From positions 245,780 through 309,779 of the forward strand of contig JAXLZT010000001.1 of NCBI GenBank assembly GCA_046350795.1: DNA of 64,000 bases. Reading direction: 5' to 3'. Positions within the stretch are counted from its first letter, which is position 1, and every line of letters begins with the position of its first letter. A program made the translations under genes and the position numbers. Below are positions 15,837-45,954 of this stretch, piece after piece. The notes beneath the pieces were generated by a model. It saw only the letters and a list, made by a program, of their open reading frames with translations. It did not search any database and was not told the origin of the DNA. This stretch comes from Minisyncoccota bacterium (lineage in GTDB: Bacteria; Patescibacteriota; Minisyncoccia; Phycocordibacterales; CALRHW01).

Positions 15837-16040
15837 ATGCAGAAACAATGTTTTTTCACTCAGAATAATATAAAGGTAATCGACTACAAAGATGTCGATA
15901 TCTTAAAGAAATTCCTAAATCCTCATGGCCGTATCATGGCAAAAAAGAGGACAGGAGTGTCTTCAAAGTATCAGCGTCAGCTCGCTACTGCTATAAAGCG
16001 AGCAAGATTCATGGGTCTTCTACCGTTTGTTTCTCGCTAA
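15837..16040 (+). CDS. rpsR: 30S ribosomal protein S18
   Basis: It has S18 motifs (RTGVSSKYQRQLATAIKRARFMGLLPF). Confidence 0.85.
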   Translation: MQKQCFFTQNNIKVIDYKDVDILKKFLNPHGRIMAKKRTGVSSKYQRQLATAIKRARFMGLLPFVSR

Positions 16041-16048
16041 GTTCAACG

Positions 16049-16149
16049 CAAAAACATCATTTGAAAAGCACGCGTCAATCCCTGCTGGGATTGCTGCTCC
16101 GCTCGGCGCCGTCGCGCCTGCGCGAGTCTTTCCAAATGATGTTTTTTGC
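16049..16149 (+). repeat. family-B structured repeat element, copy B1
   Basis: The core GCACGCGTCAATCCCTGCTGGGATTGCTGCTCCGCTCGGCGCCGTCGCGCCTGCGCGAG is flanked by the inverted repeat CAAAAACATCATTTGAAAAG/TCTTTCCAAATGATGTTTTT. It starts 9 nt after the rpsR stop. Confidence 0.8.
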
Positions 16150-16165
16150 TGTAAATCTAATTAAT

Positions 16166-16268
16166 AAAACAAAATACCTAAAAAGGGGGTCGCGAGGCTG
16201 TCGAGCCGAGCGTTTCAGGCTTTTTTAAGCTTCAAAAAAGCCGTACCCTTTTAGGTATTTTGTTTTAA
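16166..16268 (+). repeat. family-A structured repeat element, copy A1
   Basis: The conserved core GGGGGTCGCGAGGCTGTCGAGCCGAGCGTTTCAGGCTTTTTTAAGCTTCAAAAAAGCCGTACCC is embedded in a copy-specific inverted repeat AAAATACCTAAAAAG/CTTTTAGGTATTTT followed by a T-run. It lies between rpsR and efp. Confidence 0.8.
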
Positions 16269-16828
16269 TTAACTCTATCTGTATACTCTCCAGTCTCAGT
16301 ATTTATCCTCAAAATATCTCCTTCTTTTACAAACATTGGCACAGTCACACTTGCACCCGTTTCTACTTTTACAGTTTTATTTCCACCTCGAGCCGTATCA
16401 CCACGCACAGCAGGGAAAGCTTCTGTTACTTTCAAATCCACTTTGATAGGTATTTTAATTCCGATTATCTTTTCATCAAACACAAGAGCGGGGACTATGG
16501 AGTTTGGTTTTAGAAATTGCATTCCAGGGCCAAGTAAATCTGCACTGAGCTCAAATCTGTCACTAGGCTTTGCTGGATCGCAAAACCAAAACGCACCTTT
16601 ATTTGTGTAAAGATATTTAACGTCTTTTGTAGAGATGTCAGCTTCTTCTACTTTTTCTGAGACGTGAAAAGAGACCTCGGCCACTTTACCAGTGATTAGG
16701 TTTTTCATTTTTACAGCGTTTACTGGCTTGCGCTGTTGTTTGCGGAAAACGTGTGAATGAATCACTTCGTACGGAGCACCTTCGTAAACAATAAACTTTC
16801 TTTCTACTATTTCGTTATATTCCAACAT
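16265..16828 (-). CDS. efp: elongation factor P
   Basis: A 187-aa EF-P with the KPG loop region. Confidence 0.9.
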   Translation of the reverse strand: MLEYNEIVERKFIVYEGAPYEVIHSHVFRKQQRKPVNAVKMKNLITGKVAEVSFHVSEKVEEADISTKDVKYLYTNKGAFWFCDPAKPSDRFELSADLLGPGMQFLKPNSIVPALVFDEKIIGIKIPIKVDLKVTEAFPAVRGDTARGGNKTVKVETGASVTVPMFVKEGDILRINTETGEYTDRVN

Positions 16829-26625: not shown

Positions 26626-26728
26626 AGAGTAATCATACTTTAAAATGCCTCGCGCAGGCACGTCGGTGCCGAGCGGAGCAGAAATCCTAGCAAGGATTTA
26701 CGCGTGCAGTTTAAAGTATGATTACTCT
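26626..26728 (-). repeat. family-B structured repeat element, copy B2
   Basis: The reverse complement gives ...GCACGCGTAAATCCTTGCTAGGATTTCTGCTCCGCTCGGCACCGACGTGCCTGCGCGAG... flanked by AGAGTAATCATACTTTAAA/TTTAAAGTATGATTACTCT. It lies in the rplJ leader region. Confidence 0.8.
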
Positions 26729-27643: not shown

Positions 27644-27651
27644 TTAAACAA

Positions 27652-27750
27652 AACAAAAAGTACTCAAAAAGGGGGTCGCGAGGCTGTCGAGCCGAGCGTT
27701 TCAGGATTTTTTAAGCTTCAAAAAATCCGTACCCTTTTTGAGTACTTTTT
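27652..27750 (+). repeat. family-A structured repeat element, copy A2
   Basis: The same core with a compensatory GGC...GCC to GGA...TCC change. The flanking inverted repeat is AAAAAGTACTCAAAAAG/CTTTTTGAGTACTTTTT. It lies downstream of rplL. Confidence 0.8.
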
Positions 27751-27801
27751 GTTTGCTTTAGGTGTTTTTGTTTTGTTTCCTATGGTATATACTTATCCAT
27801 C

Positions 27802-29308: not shown

Positions 29309-29340
29309 AAAAAACACCCGAGAGGGTGTTTTTTGTTTTC
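29309..29340 (+). terminator. intrinsic terminator after the membrane-protein gene
   Basis: AAAAAACACCCGAGAGGGTGTTTTTTGTTTT. Confidence 0.8.
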
Positions 29341-29353
29341 CTTAGAAACTTCA

Positions 29354-29447
29354 AGAAAGTAACCTTTGAAATGCACGCATAAATCGCTGCTGCGATTTTG
29401 CTATGCTCGGCTACCCGCCTGCGCAATGCATTTCAAAGGTTACTTTC
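29354..29447 (+). repeat. family-B structured repeat element, copy B3 (diverged)
   Basis: GCACGCATAAATCGCTGCTGCGATTTTGCTATGCTCGGCTACCCGCCTGCGCAATGCA flanked by AGAAAGTAACCTTTGAAATGCA/TGCATTTCAAAGGTTACTTTC. Confidence 0.7.
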
Positions 29448-29555
29448 GTTACGTTATCTAGTAGAAAAAATTTATCACTTCTTTAGCGTGGCTTTAGGTG
29501 CCGTTTTTTAAAATTTACAAAGAATCGTTCTTTTTAGCCTCTTTGAAAGGAGAAT

Positions 29556-30726: not shown

Positions 30727-30751
30727 ACAGCCCGCTAACCCCGGGCTTTTT
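30727..30751 (+). terminator. intrinsic terminator after the HAF-repeat gene
   Basis: CAGCCCGCTAACCCCGGGCTTTTTG. Confidence 0.65.
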
Positions 30752-30800
30752 GTATGGAAGGGAGTAATAATGTGTGGTAACTAGTCTTGAGAAACCTAGT

Positions 30801-30890
30801 AAAATAGCCTCAAAAATGTGTTGCGGAGCGCTTGGCGCGAGCATAACGAAATTTCAGCAGAAATTTACGTGCACATTTTTGAGGCTATTT
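30801..30890 (-). repeat. family-B structured repeat element, copy B4 (diverged, inverted)
   Basis: The reverse complement gives TGCACGTAAATTTCTGCTGAAATTTCGTTATGCTCGCGCCAAGCGCTCCGCAA flanked by AAAATAGCCTCAAAAATGTG/CACATTTTTGAGGCTATTTT. Confidence 0.65.
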
Positions 30891-30911
30891 TGCTATGATT
30901 TCTATACCTTG

Positions 30912-30939
30912 TTGACATAATTTTACCTATGTATATACT
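30912..30939 (+). promoter_or_regulatory. sigma70-type promoter for the 23S-tRNAGly-5S unit (TTGACA-N16-TATACT)
   Basis: It is a near-consensus promoter about 370 nt upstream of 23S. Confidence 0.5.
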
Positions 30940-31041: not shown

Positions 31042-31804
31042 TTTAAAAAATCGCAGGATTAAAAGAGGATCGTGTACAGAAGTTTTTTGACAAAAATCAC
31101 ATGAAAAGCCCGAGGGCGATTTATGTGATCATTCCTGTCGCACACCCTTTTTCTGAGGTCTTAGTGGTGTGAAGACAGGTGCAGAAACTGTTATATATGA
31201 TTGTTAATTATATGTAACAGAGTAAAAAGAAACTGTCGCGAAAGCGACAGAGTAAGTTAAATATTGTGGTTTTTAAATTTCCTAATAGGAAATTTAAGAG
31301 CATATGGTGGATGCCTTGACTCTAAGAGGCGAAGAAGGACGTGGTCTGGCTGCGATAAGCTTCGGGGAGGTGCCTAGCAACCTTTGATCCGAAGATTTCC
31401 GAATGGGGAAACCCTATAGCGTAAGCTATAATCATGCACTTGATGTGTGATGCAAACTCTGGGAAGTAAAACATTTCAGTACCAGAAGGAAAAGAAACTA
31501 ACAAGCATTTCCTTAGTAGCGGCGAGCGAAAAGGAAGAAGCCCAAACCGAGCTTCATTCTCACGATGCATTTATGTGTTGTGGGAATGACGCTCGGGGTT
31601 ATAAGACGACAACTCAATTTATATTGAGAGAGTTACAAAACATTTTGTTAATGGAATACGCTGGAAAGCGTGACCCTAGGGGGTAATAGTCCCGTACATG
31701 AAAATAAAATGTCTCTTACGTTGTTGTTCTTGAGTACCTCAAGACACGTGTGGCTTGAGGGAATTTACCGGAACTAACCGGAAAGGCTAAATACTCTTAG
31801 AGAT

Positions 31805-31841
<37 letters not shown>

Positions 31842-33260
31842 CAACCCGATTAGGGTGGTGAAATAGACCTGAAACCATATGCTTACAAGGAGTCAGAGCG
31901 GACGTCGCAAGACTGTTCCGTCATGGCGTGCCTATTGAAGAATGAGCCAACGAGTTTATGTATGCTGCAGGCTAAGTGCGAGAGCATGGAGCCATAGGGA
32001 AACCGAGTGTGAATAGCGCGTTTGTAGTATATATAAGACCCGAAGCCAAGTGAGCTTGCCATGAGCAGGGTGAACTTATGAGAAATCGTAAGGGAGGCCC
32101 GAACCGATAAGCCGTGCAATACTTCCGGATGACTTGTGGTAAGAAGTGAAAAGCTAATCGAACTTGGTAATAGCTGGTTCTCTCCGAAATAGCTTTTGGG
32201 CTAGCGTCGAGTGTACCCTAGAGGGGTAGAGCACTGGATGGTTTAAACAGGGCGAAAGCTCGTTAAACCAATCAAACTCCGAATACTCTAGATTAATTAC
32301 TCGGCAGTTAGACTCTGGGGGCTAAGCTCCAGTGGTCAAAAGGGAAACAGCCCGGATCTCAAGTTAAGGTCCCTAAATCAACGCTAAGTGCACTTAAGGT
32401 GGTAGAATTTCTCAGACACTGAGGAGGTTGGCTTAGAAGCAGCCATCCTTTAAAGAAAGCGTAACAGCTCACTCAGTAAGAGATTTTGCGCCGCAGATAA
32501 TCGGGGCTAAGCGTAGTACCGAAACTGAGGATGTGTCGTCGATTCGTCGATGATACGTGGTAGGAGAGTATTCTTGTCTGCTGTGAAGGCAAAGGGGTGA
32601 CCCATGCTGGAGCGTCAAGAAGTAAGAATGTTGGCACAAGTAACCGCAATGCGGGTGAGAGTCCCGCACACCGAAAGACTAAGGTTTCCTTGGCAATGTC
32701 AATCATCCAAGGGTTAGTCGGGCCTAAGGCAATGGAGAAATCCGCAGCCGATGGACACATGGTTAATATTCCATGACTTCTGTATACAGCGATGGAAGGA
32801 CGGAGTTCAGTATGTTTCGCATGTTATTGGATTTGTGTTCGTGTTGTAAGAAAGCTTCACAGGTAAATCCGTGAACTGATTTAAATATCGATTTCAAGCA
32901 AAGCGAAAATGTCGGGTAACCGGCAAATGAAACAAAGCGAGCTTCCAAGAAAATTTTCTAAGCTTATGTATATAGGATCCGTACCGCAAACCGACACAGG
33001 TAGTCAGCTCGAGTAGAGTAAGGTGAACGAGTGAGAGGTCCCCAAGGAACTCGGCAAAAAAGCAGCCGTAACTTCGGAATAAGGCTTGCCCTTCGCAAGA
33101 AGGGCCGCAGCTAAAGTATCTCTGGCAACTGTTTATCAAAAACACAGCTCCCTGCGAACTCGTAAGAGGATGTATAGGGGGTGACACTTGACCAATGCCA
33201 GAAGGTCAAACAACGACTGTCTGCTTTCGCAAGATTGCAGGCCGATTGTTGTAAGCCCTG

Positions 33261-33295
<35 letters not shown>

Positions 33296-33512
33296 TCTGA
33301 GATTATCGCAAGATGATTTCAGAATGACTGGGACTGTTATGTGGCAAAGTGGCTGTTTAGATAAACGAAAAAGTTAAATCATTACATAAAAATGCTACCT
33401 ACTTTGTAGTAATACAAAGTCAGTCAAAATGTGGTTGGCAAGAGACCAACGCCACACATCCTACTCCGAAGAGAGGATGAAGATAGAGTCCGTCTGTGTA
33501 AAGGAATAGACG
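33296..33512 (+). other. putative ORF-less group I intron in 23S (E. coli ~1917 region)
   Basis: It inserts between the conserved CGGTCCTAAGGT and AGCGAAATTCCTTGTC. The 5' exon ends in U and the insertion ends in G. Confidence 0.55.
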
Positions 33513-34175
33513 AGCGAAATTCCTTGTCAGGTAAGTTCTGACGCGCACGAATAGTGTAATGACTGGAGAACTGTCTCGGGGACTTGCTCGGTGAAAATAC
33601 AGTACCGGTGAAGATGCCGGTTACCTGCAGTTAGACGAAAAGACCCCAGGAGCTTTACTGCAACTTGATATTGCATGTATGTTTTTTATGCGTAGCGTAG
33701 ATGGGAGGATTTGAAGTTTATCTTTCGGGGTAGATGGATCCGACAGTGAAATACCATTCTTAAAAAATATACCTGCTAACCCACACGGAAAAAACGAGCG
33801 GGGACAGTATCTGGCGGGCAGTTTTAGTGGGGCGCTATCCTCCTAAAGAGTAACGGAGGAGTTTATTAAGGTCAGCTAGGCGCGAATGGAAACCGTGCCG
33901 ATAGTGTAATGGCATAAGCTGGCTTAACTGTAAGACGTACTTGTCGAGCAGATACGAAAGTAGAACATAGTGAACCGACCATGCGCATTAGAGGCGGTGG
34001 GAGATTATCGGATAAAAGCTACCCTGGGGATAACAGGCTGGTTGTGCCTAAGAGTCCATATCGACGGCACAGTTCGGCACCTCGATGTCGGCTCTACTTA
34101 TCCTGGAGGTGGAGAAGCTTCCAAGGGTATGGCTGTTCGCCATTTAAAAAGTAACGCGAGCTGGGTTCAGACCGT

Positions 34176-34456
34176 TCAGAGGCAGATGAGTAATCGCCCT
34201 TGAGCAATCTGAATCCTCAGAGGAATTGTTTGAAATGTTTTTGTTTTTGAAAAAGAAAGTGAAACCAACCAATCACGGCGGTCGCACAATGCGTAAAGCA
34301 ATGCGCGATTAAAGCTGATGAATATCGATGAAACCCCAATGGGCAACGTCGAGGGAAGTCGAAAGACACCCGTAGAGACTACATATCGGCCGTGACGCGG
34401 ACAACACGTGTACACGAAGGCATAGTCCAATGCACACAGTAATGTGTGGGAACATG
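34176..34456 (+). other. putative ORF-less group I intron in 23S (E. coli ~2593 region)
   Basis: It inserts between GGGTTCAGACCGT and CGTGAGACAGGTTGGTC. The 5' exon ends in U and the insertion ends in G. Confidence 0.55.
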
Positions 34457-34832
34457 CGTGAGACAGGTTGGTCTCCTATCTACTGCAGGCGTTGATTCTT
34501 GAGGAGATTTGACTCTAGTACGAGAGGACCGAGTTGAACTGACCTCTGGTCTATCTGCTGTCACGCCAGTGGCACCGCAGAGTAGCTATGTCGGGAATGG
34601 ATAACTTCTGAAAGCATCTAAGAAGGAAGCCAACTCCAAGATTAGGAATCGTTTGAGACTCGTGAGAGATGATCACGTTGATAGGCTTTAGGTATAAGCA
34701 CAGTAATGTGTTGAGCCGAGAAGTACTAATAAGTCGATTCTATTAGGAAATTTGAAAACCATCTTTTTACTCTGTTACATGGGATGAACAATCCTGTGAT
34801 TTATGCAGTTATTTGAAAACTAAATACTGAAG

Positions 34833-34905
34833 ATAAAATTGCTCTTATAGCTCAGCGGCAGAGTGTCGGCGTGCCACGCCGAAGGTCGTTGGTTCAAATC
34901 CAACT
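34833..34905 (+). tRNA. tRNA-Gly (GCC)
   Basis: It folds by hand into a cloverleaf (acceptor GCTCTTA/TGAGAGC, anticodon loop GTGCCAC). It lies between 23S and 5S. Confidence 0.75.
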
Positions 34906-35142
34906 GAGAGCTTCCCGCCAAGGGAACGGGCGGGTGTTGGTTGCGTTGGCCCAACCTTAGGGAGTCCTGGAGCTTGGTGTCGGAGCCAAGAAGTTGTCTG
35001 CTACCACGACGGAAGCAGGTACTCCAGGCTCTCTGAGGGCCAAGCAAGACGTTGTTCTTTGTTTATTTTCAGTCACAAGAGCTTTGCTCTCGTGTTCAGT
35101 ATTTAGTTTTCAAATGACGCTTGGTTTTTTGAATCTTTAGTT

Positions 35143-35250
35143 TTGGTGGCTCGACGTGGTGGTCACACCCCTTCCCATTCCGAACAGGGCAGTTAAGCAC
35201 CATAGTGCCGATGATACTCCGATGAGGGGGAAAGTAGGTAGCCGCCAGAA
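35143..35250 (+). rRNA. rrf: 5S rRNA
   Basis: It has CCCATTCCGAACAGGGCAGTTAAGC...GTGCCGATGATACTCC and a terminal helix TGGTGGC/GCCGCCA. Confidence 0.85.
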
Positions 35251-35271
35251 CTAAGGATTTAAAACTAGACA

Positions 35272-35377
35272 AAAACAAAAGACATTAAATGGGCACGGAT
35301 TTTTTGAAGCTTAAAAAATCCTGAAACGCTCGGCTCGACAGCCTCGCGACCCCCCATTTAGTGTCTTTTGTTTTTTT
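35272..35377 (-). repeat. family-A structured repeat element, copy A3 (inverted orientation)
   Basis: The reverse complement of the core is flanked by CAAAAGACATTAAATGGG/CCCATTTAGTGTCTTTTG plus a T-run. It lies immediately downstream of 5S rRNA. Confidence 0.8.
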
Positions 35378-43108: not shown

Positions 43109-43400
43109 GGTGAAATCCCTATAAAAGATATAGGGATGTACTTTGAAATTACTTATACGTATTCACATACGTGCAAGTCAAAAGTTTATTCAAAAATAAG
43201 GAAATTACATTTCCTTGTTTCGACGGCGCTCGGACGATGTGGAAGCAAGCTTCCACTCGCTCCTCGCTTGTCGAAATAATTTCGGATTAAAAAGTTCTGG
43301 GCAGAAAGGACTCTTAAAAACAGGGCGCATTTTAGAAAGATACTATTTTCTATTTTGTTCCGTTCAACAAAAATTTGTCTTCAAAAATAAATTTTTACTA

Positions 43401-44889
<1,489 letters not shown>

Positions 44890-45191
44890 AAATGAAAATC
44901 GTTCTGTTGTTTTTACAACAAAACTTACAGTCGATTTCTGAGCCTCAATTGAGCTCAGAAACGGATTATTGCTAAATATCCTAAAAGTAGCATGACAATC
45001 GGAAAGACGGTTTGAACGGAACAAAATAAAGAATAGTATCTAGAAAAATCGCATACGAAAGTGTGCGGTTTTTCTTTTGTTTGGGTCTTGGGTAGTATCA
45101 TTGACAAATAGTATTTTTAATGATAAGATATAGTGTAGAGCCTGATGATTGAAAACGTGCGTTTTCTCTTACTCAGGAAGTTCTTGGAGAT

Positions 45192-45677
45192 TTGGTTATG
45201 GACAAGCATGACAAGCTGATGATGAAGTTGATTTTCTGGTGCTTCATCGCGCTACTCTGTGCGACCTTCATGGTGACTCCTGTTTTTGCTTCAGGGCAAA
45301 TGTCGGGGGCCACCGGTGATCGTCTCATCACCGCAATCATTGAAGTGGAGTCTGGCAACAATGACTCTCCTGAGCCCGGAGACAAGAACAAGAAGGACTG
45401 GGCCTATGGATGCATGCAGATTCGCCAAGACTGCGTCACGGATGTGAACCAGCGTTTTGGGACGAACTACACATCCAAGGACTGTCATGGCAACCGTGAG
45501 TTGTCAGTGTGGATCTTCCGGAAGTACATGGAGATCTACGCCACAGAAGCTCGTCTCGGCAGAAAGCCGACTGACGAAGATCGCGCTCGCATTTGGAATG
45601 GCGGGCCGAACGGCTACAAGAGGTCTGACACCAAGTCCTACTGGGCAAAGGTGCAGAAGGCTTTGAAGAAGCTGTAG
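45192..45677 (+). CDS. secreted lytic transglycosylase-like (SLT domain) protein in a GC-rich insert
   Basis: It has a signal peptide, the motif IEVESGNN...YGCMQI (an SLT catalytic E-S...G(L)MQI pattern) and ~55% GC. It lies between 16S and tRNA-Ile. Confidence 0.5.
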   Translation: MVMDKHDKLMMKLIFWCFIALLCATFMVTPVFASGQMSGATGDRLITAIIEVESGNNDSPEPGDKNKKDWAYGCMQIRQDCVTDVNQRFGTNYTSKDCHGNRELSVWIFRKYMEIYATEARLGRKPTDEDRARIWNGGPNGYKRSDTKSYWAKVQKALKKL

Positions 45678-45845
45678 AAACAATTCCAGTCGAAATGGGC
45701 GTCGGAGACGCTCGAGGAGAAAAACATGCACAGCATGTAAAAGGACCACCCGCTCGGAGAGTAGGTGGTCTTGTTGTTTACATAGGAGTAAATCTTGTGT
45801 TATCGTCCGTTTTTTGTTAGATTTTATGGGCATATAGTTTTATTT

Positions 45846-45919
45846 GCGCGCATAGCTCAGCTGGTAGAGCATTCGACTGATACTCGAAAGGTCCTAGGTT
45901 CGACTCCTAGTGCGCGCAC
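45846..45919 (+). tRNA. tRNA-Ile (GAU)
   Basis: Hand-folded cloverleaf (acceptor GCGCGCA/TGCGCGC, anticodon loop CTGATAC). It is the typical 16S-23S spacer tRNA. Confidence 0.8.
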
Positions 45920-45954
45920 CCGTTTTGCGCCTTTGTTGGCGCCGTTTTATTTAC

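What the first reader, a model, noticed from the sequence alone, without database searches (positions are those of the whole stretch)
16166..16268. Family A: conserved 64-nt structured core inside copy-specific perfect palindromes, three copies at 3' ends of rpsR, rplL and 5S rRNA
Copies lie at 16166-16268 (+), 27652-27750 (+) and 35272-35377 (inverted). The core GGGGGTCGCGAGGCTGTCGAGCCGAGCGTTTCAGG[C/A]TTTTTTAAGCTTCAAAAAA[G/T]CCGTACCC is nearly identical between copies. A 9-bp internal hairpin GGCTTTTTT/AAAAAAGCC becomes GGATTTTTT/AAAAAATCC in copies A2 and A3. This C:G to A:U change is compensatory and argues for selection on RNA structure. Each copy sits in the centre of a different, perfectly complementary 15-18-bp inverted repeat followed by a T-run, so it looks like an intrinsic terminator whose loop carries the conserved module. 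All three copies lie directly downstream of very highly expressed genes. A3 has one T/G position in its outer stem that pairs as a wobble only if the + strand is transcribed. Possible identities are a lineage-specific small RNA or protein-binding RNA module, or a MITE-like element that targets terminator loops.
Basis: seen in the sequence. Interest (0 to 1): 0.75.

Follow-up and report, generated by a model that had tools for sequence, protein, structure and literature searches.

The report
Three-way-junction hairpin repeats in Parcubacteria
The three "family A" copies are real. They belong to a larger, apparently undescribed family of about 120-base hairpin repeats, each with a conserved branched tip. 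The repeats are scattered between housekeeping genes of Parcubacteria-type genomes, come and go between related species, and probably act as transcript-end hairpins.

Summary
**Observation:** confirmed. The 64-nt core occurs three times in the window, against 0 expected by chance. Each copy sits inside a long inverted repeat and folds far better than shuffled sequence (z about -7 to -8).

**Family size:** family A is not alone. Four more copies in the window (here called B1-B4) have the same build. A covariance model trained only on B-type copies finds all three A copies. There are exactly 7 significant copies, all between 16 and 35.4 kb.

**Shared structure:** a three-way junction.
- P1 is formed by the arms.
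- P2 is YGC/GCR, then a tandem G.A, then a GC hairpin with a GWCG loop.
- P3 is an AT-rich hairpin with an AGC-containing loop.
- Covariation is strong: 94% of cells paired against 70% in shuffles, and 21 of 25 pairs show double changes.

**Known families:** no Rfam family, tRNA prediction, plasmid or phage matches.

**Distribution and turnover:** about 50 further copies occur in Parcubacteria/Paceibacteria-type MAGs and metagenomes, next to housekeeping genes and in either orientation. Across syntenic loci of related genomes, copies are inherited, decay, are lost, or are replaced by another subtype. Short-read contigs break inside the cores.

**Arms:** they are part of the unit and change by compensated steps. 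Their mismatches are G.U on the locally transcribed strand.

**Best reading (confidence about 0.5):** a non-autonomous, structured palindromic repeat that serves as a transcript 3' hairpin or terminator. How it spreads is unknown.

The parts
16165..16267 (+). Element A1. The arms are 16165-16184 / 16249-16267 and the core is 16185-16248. Core layout: P2a CGC 16191-93 / GCG 16210-12; tandem GA 16194-95 / 16208-09; P2b GGCT/AGCC with loop GTCG 16200-03; P3 16218-26 / 16234-42 with loop AAGCTTC. It lies 5 nt from the stop of efp (- strand).
27646..27760 (+). Element A2, core 27671-27734. It starts 3 nt after the rplL stop codon and fills most of the rplL-to-next-gene spacer. It is orthologous to L119:1416-1540, which has the same arms.
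35271..35375 (-). Element A3, core 35291-35354 on the - strand. It lies 21 nt after 5S rRNA (35142-35250). The closest relative, L119, has a canonical short terminator at this position.
16050..16146 (-). Element B1, B-type core in the same reading orientation as A on the - strand. It starts 10 nt after the rpsR stop. With A1 it forms a head-to-head pair between the convergent genes rpsR and efp.
26626..26728 (+). Element B4. It ends 8 nt before the rplJ start codon. It is orthologous to L119:391-495. The arms of the two copies differ by compensated changes, including a deletion of both partners of one pair.
29332..29470 (-). Element B2. The inner arms are nearly perfect and the outer arms are decayed (77% complementary over 44 nt). 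It lies just downstream of an intact canonical terminator at about 29310-29335.
30792..30900 (+). Element B3. It lies between the canonical terminator of the DUF3466 gene (about 30728-30752) and the 23S rRNA promoter-like TTGACA box. Relatives have an orthologous copy (L135), a decayed remnant (L133, L134) or only traces of the arms (L119).

Best explanation
Family A is one subfamily of a family of hairpin repeats found across Parcubacteria/Paceibacteria-type genomes. The median full hairpin is about 121 nt.

**Anatomy of one unit (shown).**
- A long, almost perfectly paired stem forms the arms.
- The stem is capped by a conserved 57-64-nt three-way junction.

**Behaviour in genomes (shown).**
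- Units are dispersed in intergenic DNA beside ordinary housekeeping genes, in either orientation.
- They are numerous enough to break short-read assemblies.
- Between related genomes they are inherited, decay, disappear, appear, or are exchanged for another subtype at the same site.
- This is the behaviour of non-autonomous repeated DNA, not of a fixed regulatory site.

**Arms (shown).**
- The arms belong to the unit.
- They evolve by symmetric, compensated changes.
- Their isolated mismatches are G.U on whichever strand is locally transcribed.

**Inferred.**
- In the host, the unit works in cis as a large RNA 3' hairpin: a two-way intrinsic terminator and/or a structure that protects the transcript 3' end. 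Its core type and orientation are interchangeable.
- The conserved cap carries purine-rich non-canonical pairs (tandem G.A; G.A, G.U and U.G at the junction) on one strand only. It is probably the handle recognised in single-stranded form by whatever copies or maintains the element. That factor is unknown.
- Spread may occur by ectopic recombination or template switching between hairpins, not by a dedicated transposase.
- The perfect arms may be kept perfect by hairpin-templated correction together with selection on the RNA helix.
For: **Homology and structure.**
- A covariance model built from B-type copies alone finds A1-A3 at E = 2.5e-8 to 6e-5, and finds nothing else significant in the window.
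- On 30 copies, 94.0% of cells are paired against 70.5% in shuffles, and about 34-52% when partners are slid. 21 of 25 pairs show double changes.
- The same holds on a plain MAFFT alignment: 92.6% against 73.8%.
- A-type copies show compensated changes in P2a, P2b and P3.

**Repeat behaviour.**
- Contigs L117, L118, L133 and L135 end inside cores.
- Eight loci hold 2-3 copies each within 8-15 kb.
- Occupancy of five orthologous sites differs between the window and L061, L119, L120, L121, L133, L134 and L135. Examples include a subtype swap (A against B3-like after rplL) and decayed remnants.
- The 60 flanking proteins scanned are housekeeping. None is a transposase, reverse transcriptase or integrase.

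**Arms.**
- Orthologous copies keep their arms. B4 and its L119 counterpart differ by C:G to A:T and by deletion of both partners of one pair.
- B3-like copies at different sites share ATAGCAAAATAGC / GCTATTTTGCTAT.
- In one sublineage, arms up to about 45 nt are shared between copies.

**RNA-level constraint.**
- Isolated arm mismatches are G.U 13 times against A.C 3 times on the transcribed strand (p = 0.02). The split is 8:2 in sense copies and 5:1 in antisense copies.

**Terminator equivalence.**
- After rplL, the element is the only hairpin in 4 of 4 genomes.
- After 5S, three genomes have an element and L119 has AAAAAACCGCttgaGCGGTTTTTT.
- In the three window copies, and in several copies elsewhere, the A-type core is flanked directly by A- and T-runs: AAAAAGGG...CCCTTTTT.
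Against: - No insertion event with clean boundaries was caught. No close strain with an empty site was available, so mobility is inferred only from comparisons at genus-level distance.
- No mobilising enzyme, target-site duplication or parent element was found.
- Cores are far better conserved (up to 70/70 nt identical between MAGs) than neighbouring proteins (41-75% identity). Junk DNA would not show this, so the cores may have a function of their own.
- Only 8 of 45 units have both an A-run and a T-run at the hairpin base by my crude measure, against 1.7% in controls. In one sublineage the core is flanked by T-run then A-run, the reverse of what a terminator needs.
- The G.U test rests on 16 mismatches.
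- There are no expression or 3'-end data.
Confidence: 0.5

Rival explanations
1. The core is a functional structured RNA module in its own right. It might be a protein-binding three-way junction, or a small RNA released from the long stem by RNase III. It would be kept in many copies under purifying selection, as tRNA genes are. The arms would merely present it.
For: - Sequence conservation of the junction, loops and tandem G.A is extreme, while the stems covary.
- Non-canonical pairs exist on one strand only. One G.A to A.G swap is seen at the junction.
- Conserved GA-rich internal loops occur in P1 of several lineages: UUGAG/YGAGA and GUCGAAG/CGAGUAAAAAG.
- The long, perfectly paired stems are the kind of duplex RNase III cuts. 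This is inference from established knowledge and was not tested.
Against: - Core orientation is mixed relative to local transcription (17 sense, 12 antisense), so about 40% of copies would be transcribed as the complement.
- No conserved promoter is evident.
- Copies decay or vanish at orthologous sites without replacement: s2 and s3 in L119, L134 and L135.
- Different subtypes substitute for one another at one site.
- There is no link to any gene class.
Confidence: 0.25
2. It is a REP/RAYT-like or IS200/IS605-like single-stranded-DNA element. The one-strand-specific fold of the cap would be recognised by a chromosomally encoded HUH (Y1) enzyme acting in trans, which would copy the hairpin to new sites.
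For: - The non-canonical pairs in the cap are strand-specific, yet orientation is indifferent to transcription.
- The copies are dispersed between genes, and include a head-to-head pair (B1+A1) that resembles BIME pairs.
- No adjacent transposase is needed under this model.
Against: - The units are 100-160 nt with a three-way junction, not 20-40-nt imperfect palindromes.
- There is no GTAG or CGTC tag at the foot of the hairpin (compare the abstract of PMC3733652).
- There is no bias relative to the replication strand. The window has uniformly positive GC skew but 4 plus and 3 minus copies.
- No Y1 transposase was seen in any neighbourhood. Whole genomes were not searched.
Confidence: 0.12
3. 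They are ordinary intrinsic terminators whose similarity is convergent or due to low complexity, or they are an assembly artefact.
For: They lie at gene 3' ends, have A/T tracts, and both strands fold.
Against: - The GC-rich cores of 57-64 nt are identical in detail, against a chance expectation of 0.
- The covariance-model E-values are as low as 1e-33.
- The same elements appear in independent NCBI, JGI and Logan assemblies.
- Canonical short terminators coexist with them in the same genomes.
Confidence: 0.03

Closest known systems
Long palindromic intergenic repeats of bacteria: ERIC/IRU, Correia (CREE), RUP, BOX (named from my own knowledge; reviews PMC3184786 and PMC10969869 appeared in the searches but I did not read them)
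   Same: They are 100-160-bp imperfect palindromes dispersed in transcribed intergenic DNA in both orientations. They fold as long RNA hairpins, have no coding capacity, and are present or absent between relatives.
   Different: In this family the best-conserved part is the centre, a branched three-way junction, and the ends are the least conserved. MITE-type repeats are the opposite: their terminal inverted repeats are conserved. No target duplication or parent insertion sequence was found here. Sequence similarity to those families was not tested because no reference sequences were available.
REP/BIME elements with RAYT transposases (PMC3733652, abstract)
   Same: They are extragenic palindromes proposed to act in termination and mRNA stabilisation. 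They can occur in inverted pairs and have no adjacent transposase.
   Different: REPs are 20-40 bp simple hairpins with a GTAG or CGTC tag. The units here are three to five times longer and branched, and they lack the tag at the foot of the hairpin.
GC clusters, double-hairpin elements and repetitive hairpin-forming elements of AT-rich mitochondrial genomes (PMC4478555, read in part; PMC2800124, abstract; Paquin et al. 2000, as cited in PMC4478555)
   Same: They are GC-rich, hairpin-forming, non-coding repeats in compact AT-rich genomes. Structure is conserved by compensatory change, turnover is rapid, and the way they spread is unknown.
   Different: The host is bacterial. The units carry long AT-rich arms around the GC-rich cap. 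No putative AG-type target duplication is seen. There is no sequence relationship.
Bidirectional intrinsic (Rho-independent) terminators
   Same: They sit at the 3' ends of genes. Many copies have an A-tract, hairpin and T-tract layout. At one orthologous site the element alternates with a canonical terminator.
   Different: The canonical terminators in these same genomes are 5-7-bp GC stems with 4-6-nt loops. The elements have 20-45-bp AT-rich stems and a 57-64-nt structured cap. Termination was not measured.
Terminator-embedded aptamer (HMP-PP riboswitch; PMC6478431, abstract)
   Same: A structured RNA domain is nested inside a terminator hairpin.
   Different: A riboswitch has a fixed orientation, sits in a 5' leader and is tied to particular genes. 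None of these holds here.

Membership tests
Any Rfam 15 family | Match to a curated covariance model | tested here: not met
   The gathering-threshold scan of the window finds only rRNAs and tRNAs. The permissive scan of 16000-16320, which contains B1 and A1, gives only noise, with E of 2 or more and bit scores far below the gathering scores.
tRNA / tRNA-like | Cloverleaf recognised by ARAGORN or the Rfam tRNA model | tested here: not met
   Only tRNA-Gly and tRNA-Ile were found in the window, and neither lies at an element.
MITE | Terminal inverted repeats that are the conserved part of the element | tested here: not met
   Conservation is highest at the centre and falls towards the ends of the arms.
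MITE | Direct target-site duplication | tested here: inconclusive
   None is visible at the 7 window copies or at filled and empty site pairs. No recent insertion with a close empty allele was available.
MITE | Related autonomous element encoding a transposase | tested here: not met
   No transposase was found among 60 flanking proteins. There was no match in plasmids, phage records or viral contigs. ISfinder was not available.
REP/BIME | 20-40-nt imperfect palindrome with a GTAG or CGTC tag at one end | tested here: not met
   Units are about 100-160 nt and branched, with no tag at the foot of the hairpin.
REP/BIME | A cognate RAYT (Y1 HUH) gene in the genome | not testable with these tools
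   Whole genomes of the carriers could not be scanned.
Intrinsic terminator | Stable hairpin followed by a U-tract at the end of a transcription unit | tested here: inconclusive
   The hairpins are very stable. The position fits. A/T tracts flank the A-type cores in the window. Only 8 of 45 units have both tracts at the base by my measure.
Intrinsic terminator | Actual 3'-end formation | not testable with these tools
   No transcript data were available.
Integron attC | R''/L'' and L'/R' boxes, a cassette context and an integrase | tested here: not met
   The neighbours are ribosomal, aminoacyl-tRNA synthetase and other housekeeping genes. No integrase was found.
Riboswitch / cis-regulatory leader | Fixed orientation in the 5' leader of a defined gene set | tested here: not met
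   Orientation is mixed (17 sense, 12 antisense), most copies lie 3' of genes, and the neighbours are unrelated.

The most novel reading that the evidence does not exclude
The conserved three-way junction may be the recognition module of a previously unknown way of spreading in Parcubacteria that needs no transposase or depends on a host factor. Alternatively, it may be the binding site of a lineage-specific RNA- or ssDNA-binding protein. In either case a portable hairpin would be copied between intergenic sites and exchanged like a cassette. Its arms would be kept perfect by hairpin-templated correction, and the host would reuse it as a terminator.
Probability: 0.3. Interest if true: 0.8.

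Novelty: new variant of a known kind. Interest (0 to 1): 0.58.

Why it matters
- Parcubacteria and related ultra-small bacteria have tiny, tightly packed genomes. Non-coding function in them is almost unexplored.
- If the density seen in the window (7 copies in 64 kb) held genome-wide, this family would occupy about 1% of the genome. It also marks the ends of highly expressed operons (rplJL, the rRNA genes, rpsR, efp).
- It gives a concrete handle on transcription termination and RNA 3'-end biology in organisms that cannot be cultured alone.
- It explains a recurrent cause of contig breaks in their metagenome assemblies.
- It is a clean case for studying how long palindromes stay perfect while their sequence drifts.
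- If a specific partner of the conserved cap exists, it would be a new protein-nucleic-acid system.

Tried and rejected
**Invalid searches.**
- Searches used an A-type pattern with 9 N instead of 8 N after CAG. Their zero hits mean nothing. I corrected the pattern, checked it on held sequence and re-ran it.

**A weak result I set aside.**
- My first count of G.T against A.C in the arms (39 against 9) was inflated, because ungapped extension ran into the flanks.
- A symmetric recount gave 18 against 12 with respect to core orientation, which is not significant.
- Only the recount relative to the transcribed strand was informative.

**The genome-contig scan.**
94 matches lay in loci with GC of 0.5 or more.
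- It therefore cannot be used to estimate distribution or copy number.

**Taxonomic breadth.**
- I first read the "Saccharibacteria" labels of several MAGs as showing conservation across classes.
- The ValRS next to one such copy (L105) has its best named relatives in Paceibacterota, Taylorbacteria, Vogelbacteria and Giovannonibacteria at 65-75% identity.
- That label is therefore doubtful, and I claim only Parcubacteria/Paceibacteria-type breadth.

**Identities considered and dropped.**
- Hammerhead, HDV-like and twister ribozymes: the core motifs are absent by eye, and Rfam gives no hit.
- SRP RNA: a shared UGACGCGUG / AGCAGC string with E. coli 4.5S RNA, recalled from memory, but no Rfam hit.
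- The L11/L10-binding rRNA mimic.
- parS or DNA-uptake sequences: the internal stems covary, which double-stranded-DNA sites would not need.
- Retron msr/msd and DGR: no reverse transcriptase nearby.
- attC.
- Riboswitch.

**Insertion into pre-existing terminator loops.**
- Empty sites show either an intact terminator beside the insertion point or no palindrome at all.

**Literature.**
- Six full-text searches found no description of this element.

Full report

Yes.
- The first 35 nt of the core occur exactly three times, at 16185(+), 27671(+) and 35354(-). Shuffled sequence gives 0 matches.
- Reading the sequence confirms the 64-nt cores, the C:G to A:T double change in the 9-bp hairpin, and the flanking complementary arms.
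- Each unit folds at -46 to -51 kcal/mol, with z of about -7 to -8. Both strands fold about equally well.
- One correction: A1 abuts the convergent efp gene. It is separated from rpsR by a second element.

**2. Family A is part of something larger.**

- The inverted-repeat scan showed four more long palindromes with a 51-59-nt GC-rich centre: 16050-16146, 26626-26728, 29332-29470 and 30792-30900. I call them B1-B4.
- Aligned with A, they share T-YGCG...CGAGC...AGC.
- A covariance model built from 18 B-type sequences only recovers all three A copies at E = 2.5e-8 to 6e-5 with filters off. It finds nothing else significant in 64 kb.
- The window therefore holds 7 copies, all between 16 and 35.4 kb.

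**3. Structure.**

The consensus is a three-way junction with these parts:
- P1 is formed by the arms.
- P2a is YGC/GCR.
- An internal loop follows: 5'-(G)NA / 5'-GA, which is a tandem G.A in A-type copies.
- P2b is a GC-rich hairpin with a GWCG loop.
- P3 is an AT-rich hairpin. Its loop is AGCA in B-type copies and AAGCTTC in A-type copies.

Covariation is strong:
- On 30 copies, 94.0% of cells pair, against 70.5% in shuffles and 34-52% when partners are slid. 21 of 25 pairs show changes on both sides.
- A plain MAFFT alignment not fitted to the model gives 92.6% against 73.8%.
- Within 22 A-type copies there are compensated changes in P2a (CGC/GCG to CGT/ACG or TTTT/AAAA), in P2b (GGCT/AGCC to GGCC/GGCC, GGTT/AACC or GTTT/AAAC) and in P3.

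One strand differs from the other in the cap:
- Three copies swap G.A for A.G.
- On the other strand these positions would be pyrimidine mismatches.
- Several lineages also carry conserved GA-rich internal loops in P1.

Covariation shows that a single strand folds. It does not say whether that strand is RNA or DNA.

**4. Not a known family.**

- Rfam 15 gives no match, even at E of 10 or less.
- ARAGORN sees no tRNA-like gene at any element.
- Plasmid and phage collections give no match.
- IMG/VR gives no match with valid A and B patterns.
- Six literature searches found no description of it.

**5. Distribution.**

- A pattern scan of species-representative genomes returned about 25 true copies in Parcubacteria, Vogelbacteria, Minisyncoccia and Patescibacteria MAGs, among many chance hits in high-GC genomes.
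- A metagenome scan added 11 loci holding 13 copies.
- The window itself is from a Candidatus Paceibacterota MAG, on a 562-kb contig.
- Some carriers are labelled Saccharibacteria. The ValRS beside one such copy groups with Paceibacterota, Taylorbacteria and Vogelbacteria at 65-75% identity. I therefore do not claim spread beyond Parcubacteria-type lineages.
- Cores can be identical over 70 nt between MAGs whose DUF3466 homologues are 41% identical.

**6. Behaviour in genomes.**

*Context.* The 60 flanking proteins scanned are ordinary housekeeping genes, such as aminoacyl-tRNA synthetases, RF-1, SecY, UvrD, DprA and ABC transporters. None is a transposase, reverse transcriptase or integrase.

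*Orientation.*
- Relative to neighbouring genes it is mixed.
- Relative to local transcription it is 17 sense and 12 antisense.
- Relative to replication it is also mixed: GC skew is positive across the whole window, yet 4 copies are on the + strand and 3 on the - strand.

*Assembly breaks.* Short-read contigs end inside cores:
- L117 ends in A2.
- L118 starts in B4 and ends in A2.
- L133 starts in a B-type core.
- L135 ends in a B-type core.

*Site occupancy.* Seven syntenic loci were compared with the window: L061, L119, L120, L121, L133, L134 and L135. "Outside locus" means the site is not covered by the DNA held.

| Site | Window | L119 | L061 | L120 | L121 | L133 | L134 | L135 |
|---|---|---|---|---|---|---|---|---|
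| 5' of rplJ | B+ | B+ (orthologous) | outside locus | outside locus | none | outside locus | outside locus | outside locus |
| 3' of rplL | A+ | A+ (same arms) | B3-like+ | outside locus | B+ | outside locus | outside locus | outside locus |
| After the MscS-like gene | B- | empty | A- | outside locus | B+ | B- (other subtype and arms) | empty | empty |
| Before the 23S promoter | B3+ | arm traces only | A+ (unrelated arms) | empty | empty | decayed remnant | decayed, internally deleted remnant | orthologous copy, altered P2b |
| After 5S | A- | canonical short terminator | outside locus | B3-like+ | B3-like- | outside locus | outside locus | outside locus |

Together they show inheritance, decay, loss, gain and replacement at genus-level distances. 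L119 is about 75-84% identical to the window in protein-coding stretches.

**7. The arms.**

They are not pre-existing terminator stems:
- At two sites the canonical terminator is intact and the element lies beside it.
- Empty sites show no suitable palindrome.

They belong to the unit:
- Orthologous copies keep them.
- B3-like copies at three different sites in four genomes share outer-arm motifs.
- Two copies within L121 share 14 nt of inner arm.
- In one sublineage, arms of about 45 nt are shared.

Changes are symmetric. Between B4 and its L119 orthologue, a C:G pair became A:T and another pair was deleted on both sides. A paired deletion suggests correction templated by the opposite arm. 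This is inference.

The arms appear constrained as RNA. Among 29 units with a clear local direction of transcription, isolated arm mismatches are G.U on the transcribed strand 13 times and A.C 3 times (p = 0.02). The split is 8:2 in sense copies and 5:1 in antisense copies. The helix therefore seems to be constrained in the transcript, whatever the orientation of the core.

**8. What it most likely is.**

- It is a non-autonomous structured palindromic repeat that the host uses as a transcript 3' hairpin, acting as a terminator and/or a protective structure.
- Support: positional equivalence with terminators (after rplL in 4 of 4 genomes; alternation with a canonical terminator after 5S), A/T tracts around the A-type cores in the window, and the G.U bias.
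- Limits: there are no transcript data; only 8 of 45 units have both tracts at the base by my crude measure (1.7% in controls); and one sublineage has the tracts reversed next to the core.
- Open question: the reason for the extreme conservation and one-strand features of the cap. I infer a single-strand recognition step in copying or maintenance. An independent RNA function is the main rival.

**9. Verdict.**

- It is wrong that the element targets terminator loops and that the arms are merely local sequence.
- By form it is closest to ERIC/Correia-type palindromic repeats and to mitochondrial GC-cluster and double-hairpin elements. Its conserved centre and variable ends are the reverse of MITE logic.
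- I rate it a new variant of a known kind, of moderate to good interest.

Noticed in passing
window 31280-34750: The 23S rRNA match spans 3471 nt for a 2925-nt model, so the gene carries about 550 nt of insertion(s). A syntenic relative (L121:7671-8183) has a LAGLIDADG ORF in the stretch that aligns to the window's 23S gene.
   Followed up: no
window 31280-35250 and 43394-45921: The rRNA genes are unlinked and in an unusual order. 23S, tRNA-Gly and 5S lie at 31.3-35.3 kb. 16S and tRNA-Ile lie about 8 kb further downstream, with protein genes in between.
   Followed up: no
window 16050-16267: B1 and A1 lie head to head, 19 nt apart, between the convergent genes rpsR and efp. Each is antisense to the gene it abuts. 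This resembles the alternating REP pairs of BIMEs.
   Followed up: partly
window 26626-26728 against L119:391-495: The arms of these orthologous copies differ by a deletion of both partners of one base pair and by a C:G to A:T double change. This suggests that one arm is corrected against the other.
   Followed up: partly
L125:5362-5452 and L121:3833-3912: These are divergent subtypes. One has a much longer P3 (GCCACACCTC...GAGGTGTGGC). The other has a B-like P2 but an AAGCTT loop like A. They look like intermediates between A and B.
   Followed up: no
L046, L085, L105 (CAYOUG01...) and perhaps L004, L027, L052, L082, L084, L110: These MAGs are labelled 'uncultured Candidatus Saccharibacteria'. 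The ValRS of one (L105) is closest to Paceibacterota, Taylorbacteria, Vogelbacteria and Giovannonibacteria proteins at 65-75% identity, so the label looks wrong.
   Followed up: partly
L135:1-24: This Logan contig starts with TTCAGACGTGTGCTCTTCCGATCT. That is Illumina adapter sequence left in the assembly (the adapter identity is from my own knowledge).
   Followed up: no
window 30905-30935; L061:4470-4500; L119:4400-4430; L120:1975-2005: A strongly conserved promoter-like block, cTTGTTGACATAAttt..cTATGTATATACTg, lies upstream of 23S in all relatives. Elements insert immediately upstream of its -35 box.
   Followed up: no
A-type P3 loop, e.g. window 16227-16233: The loop AAGCTTC is invariant in the 21 typical A-type copies aligned (one divergent copy, L046:3903, differs) and contains the self-complementary AAGCTT. 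This could allow loop-loop kissing between two copies. It is speculation.
   Followed up: no
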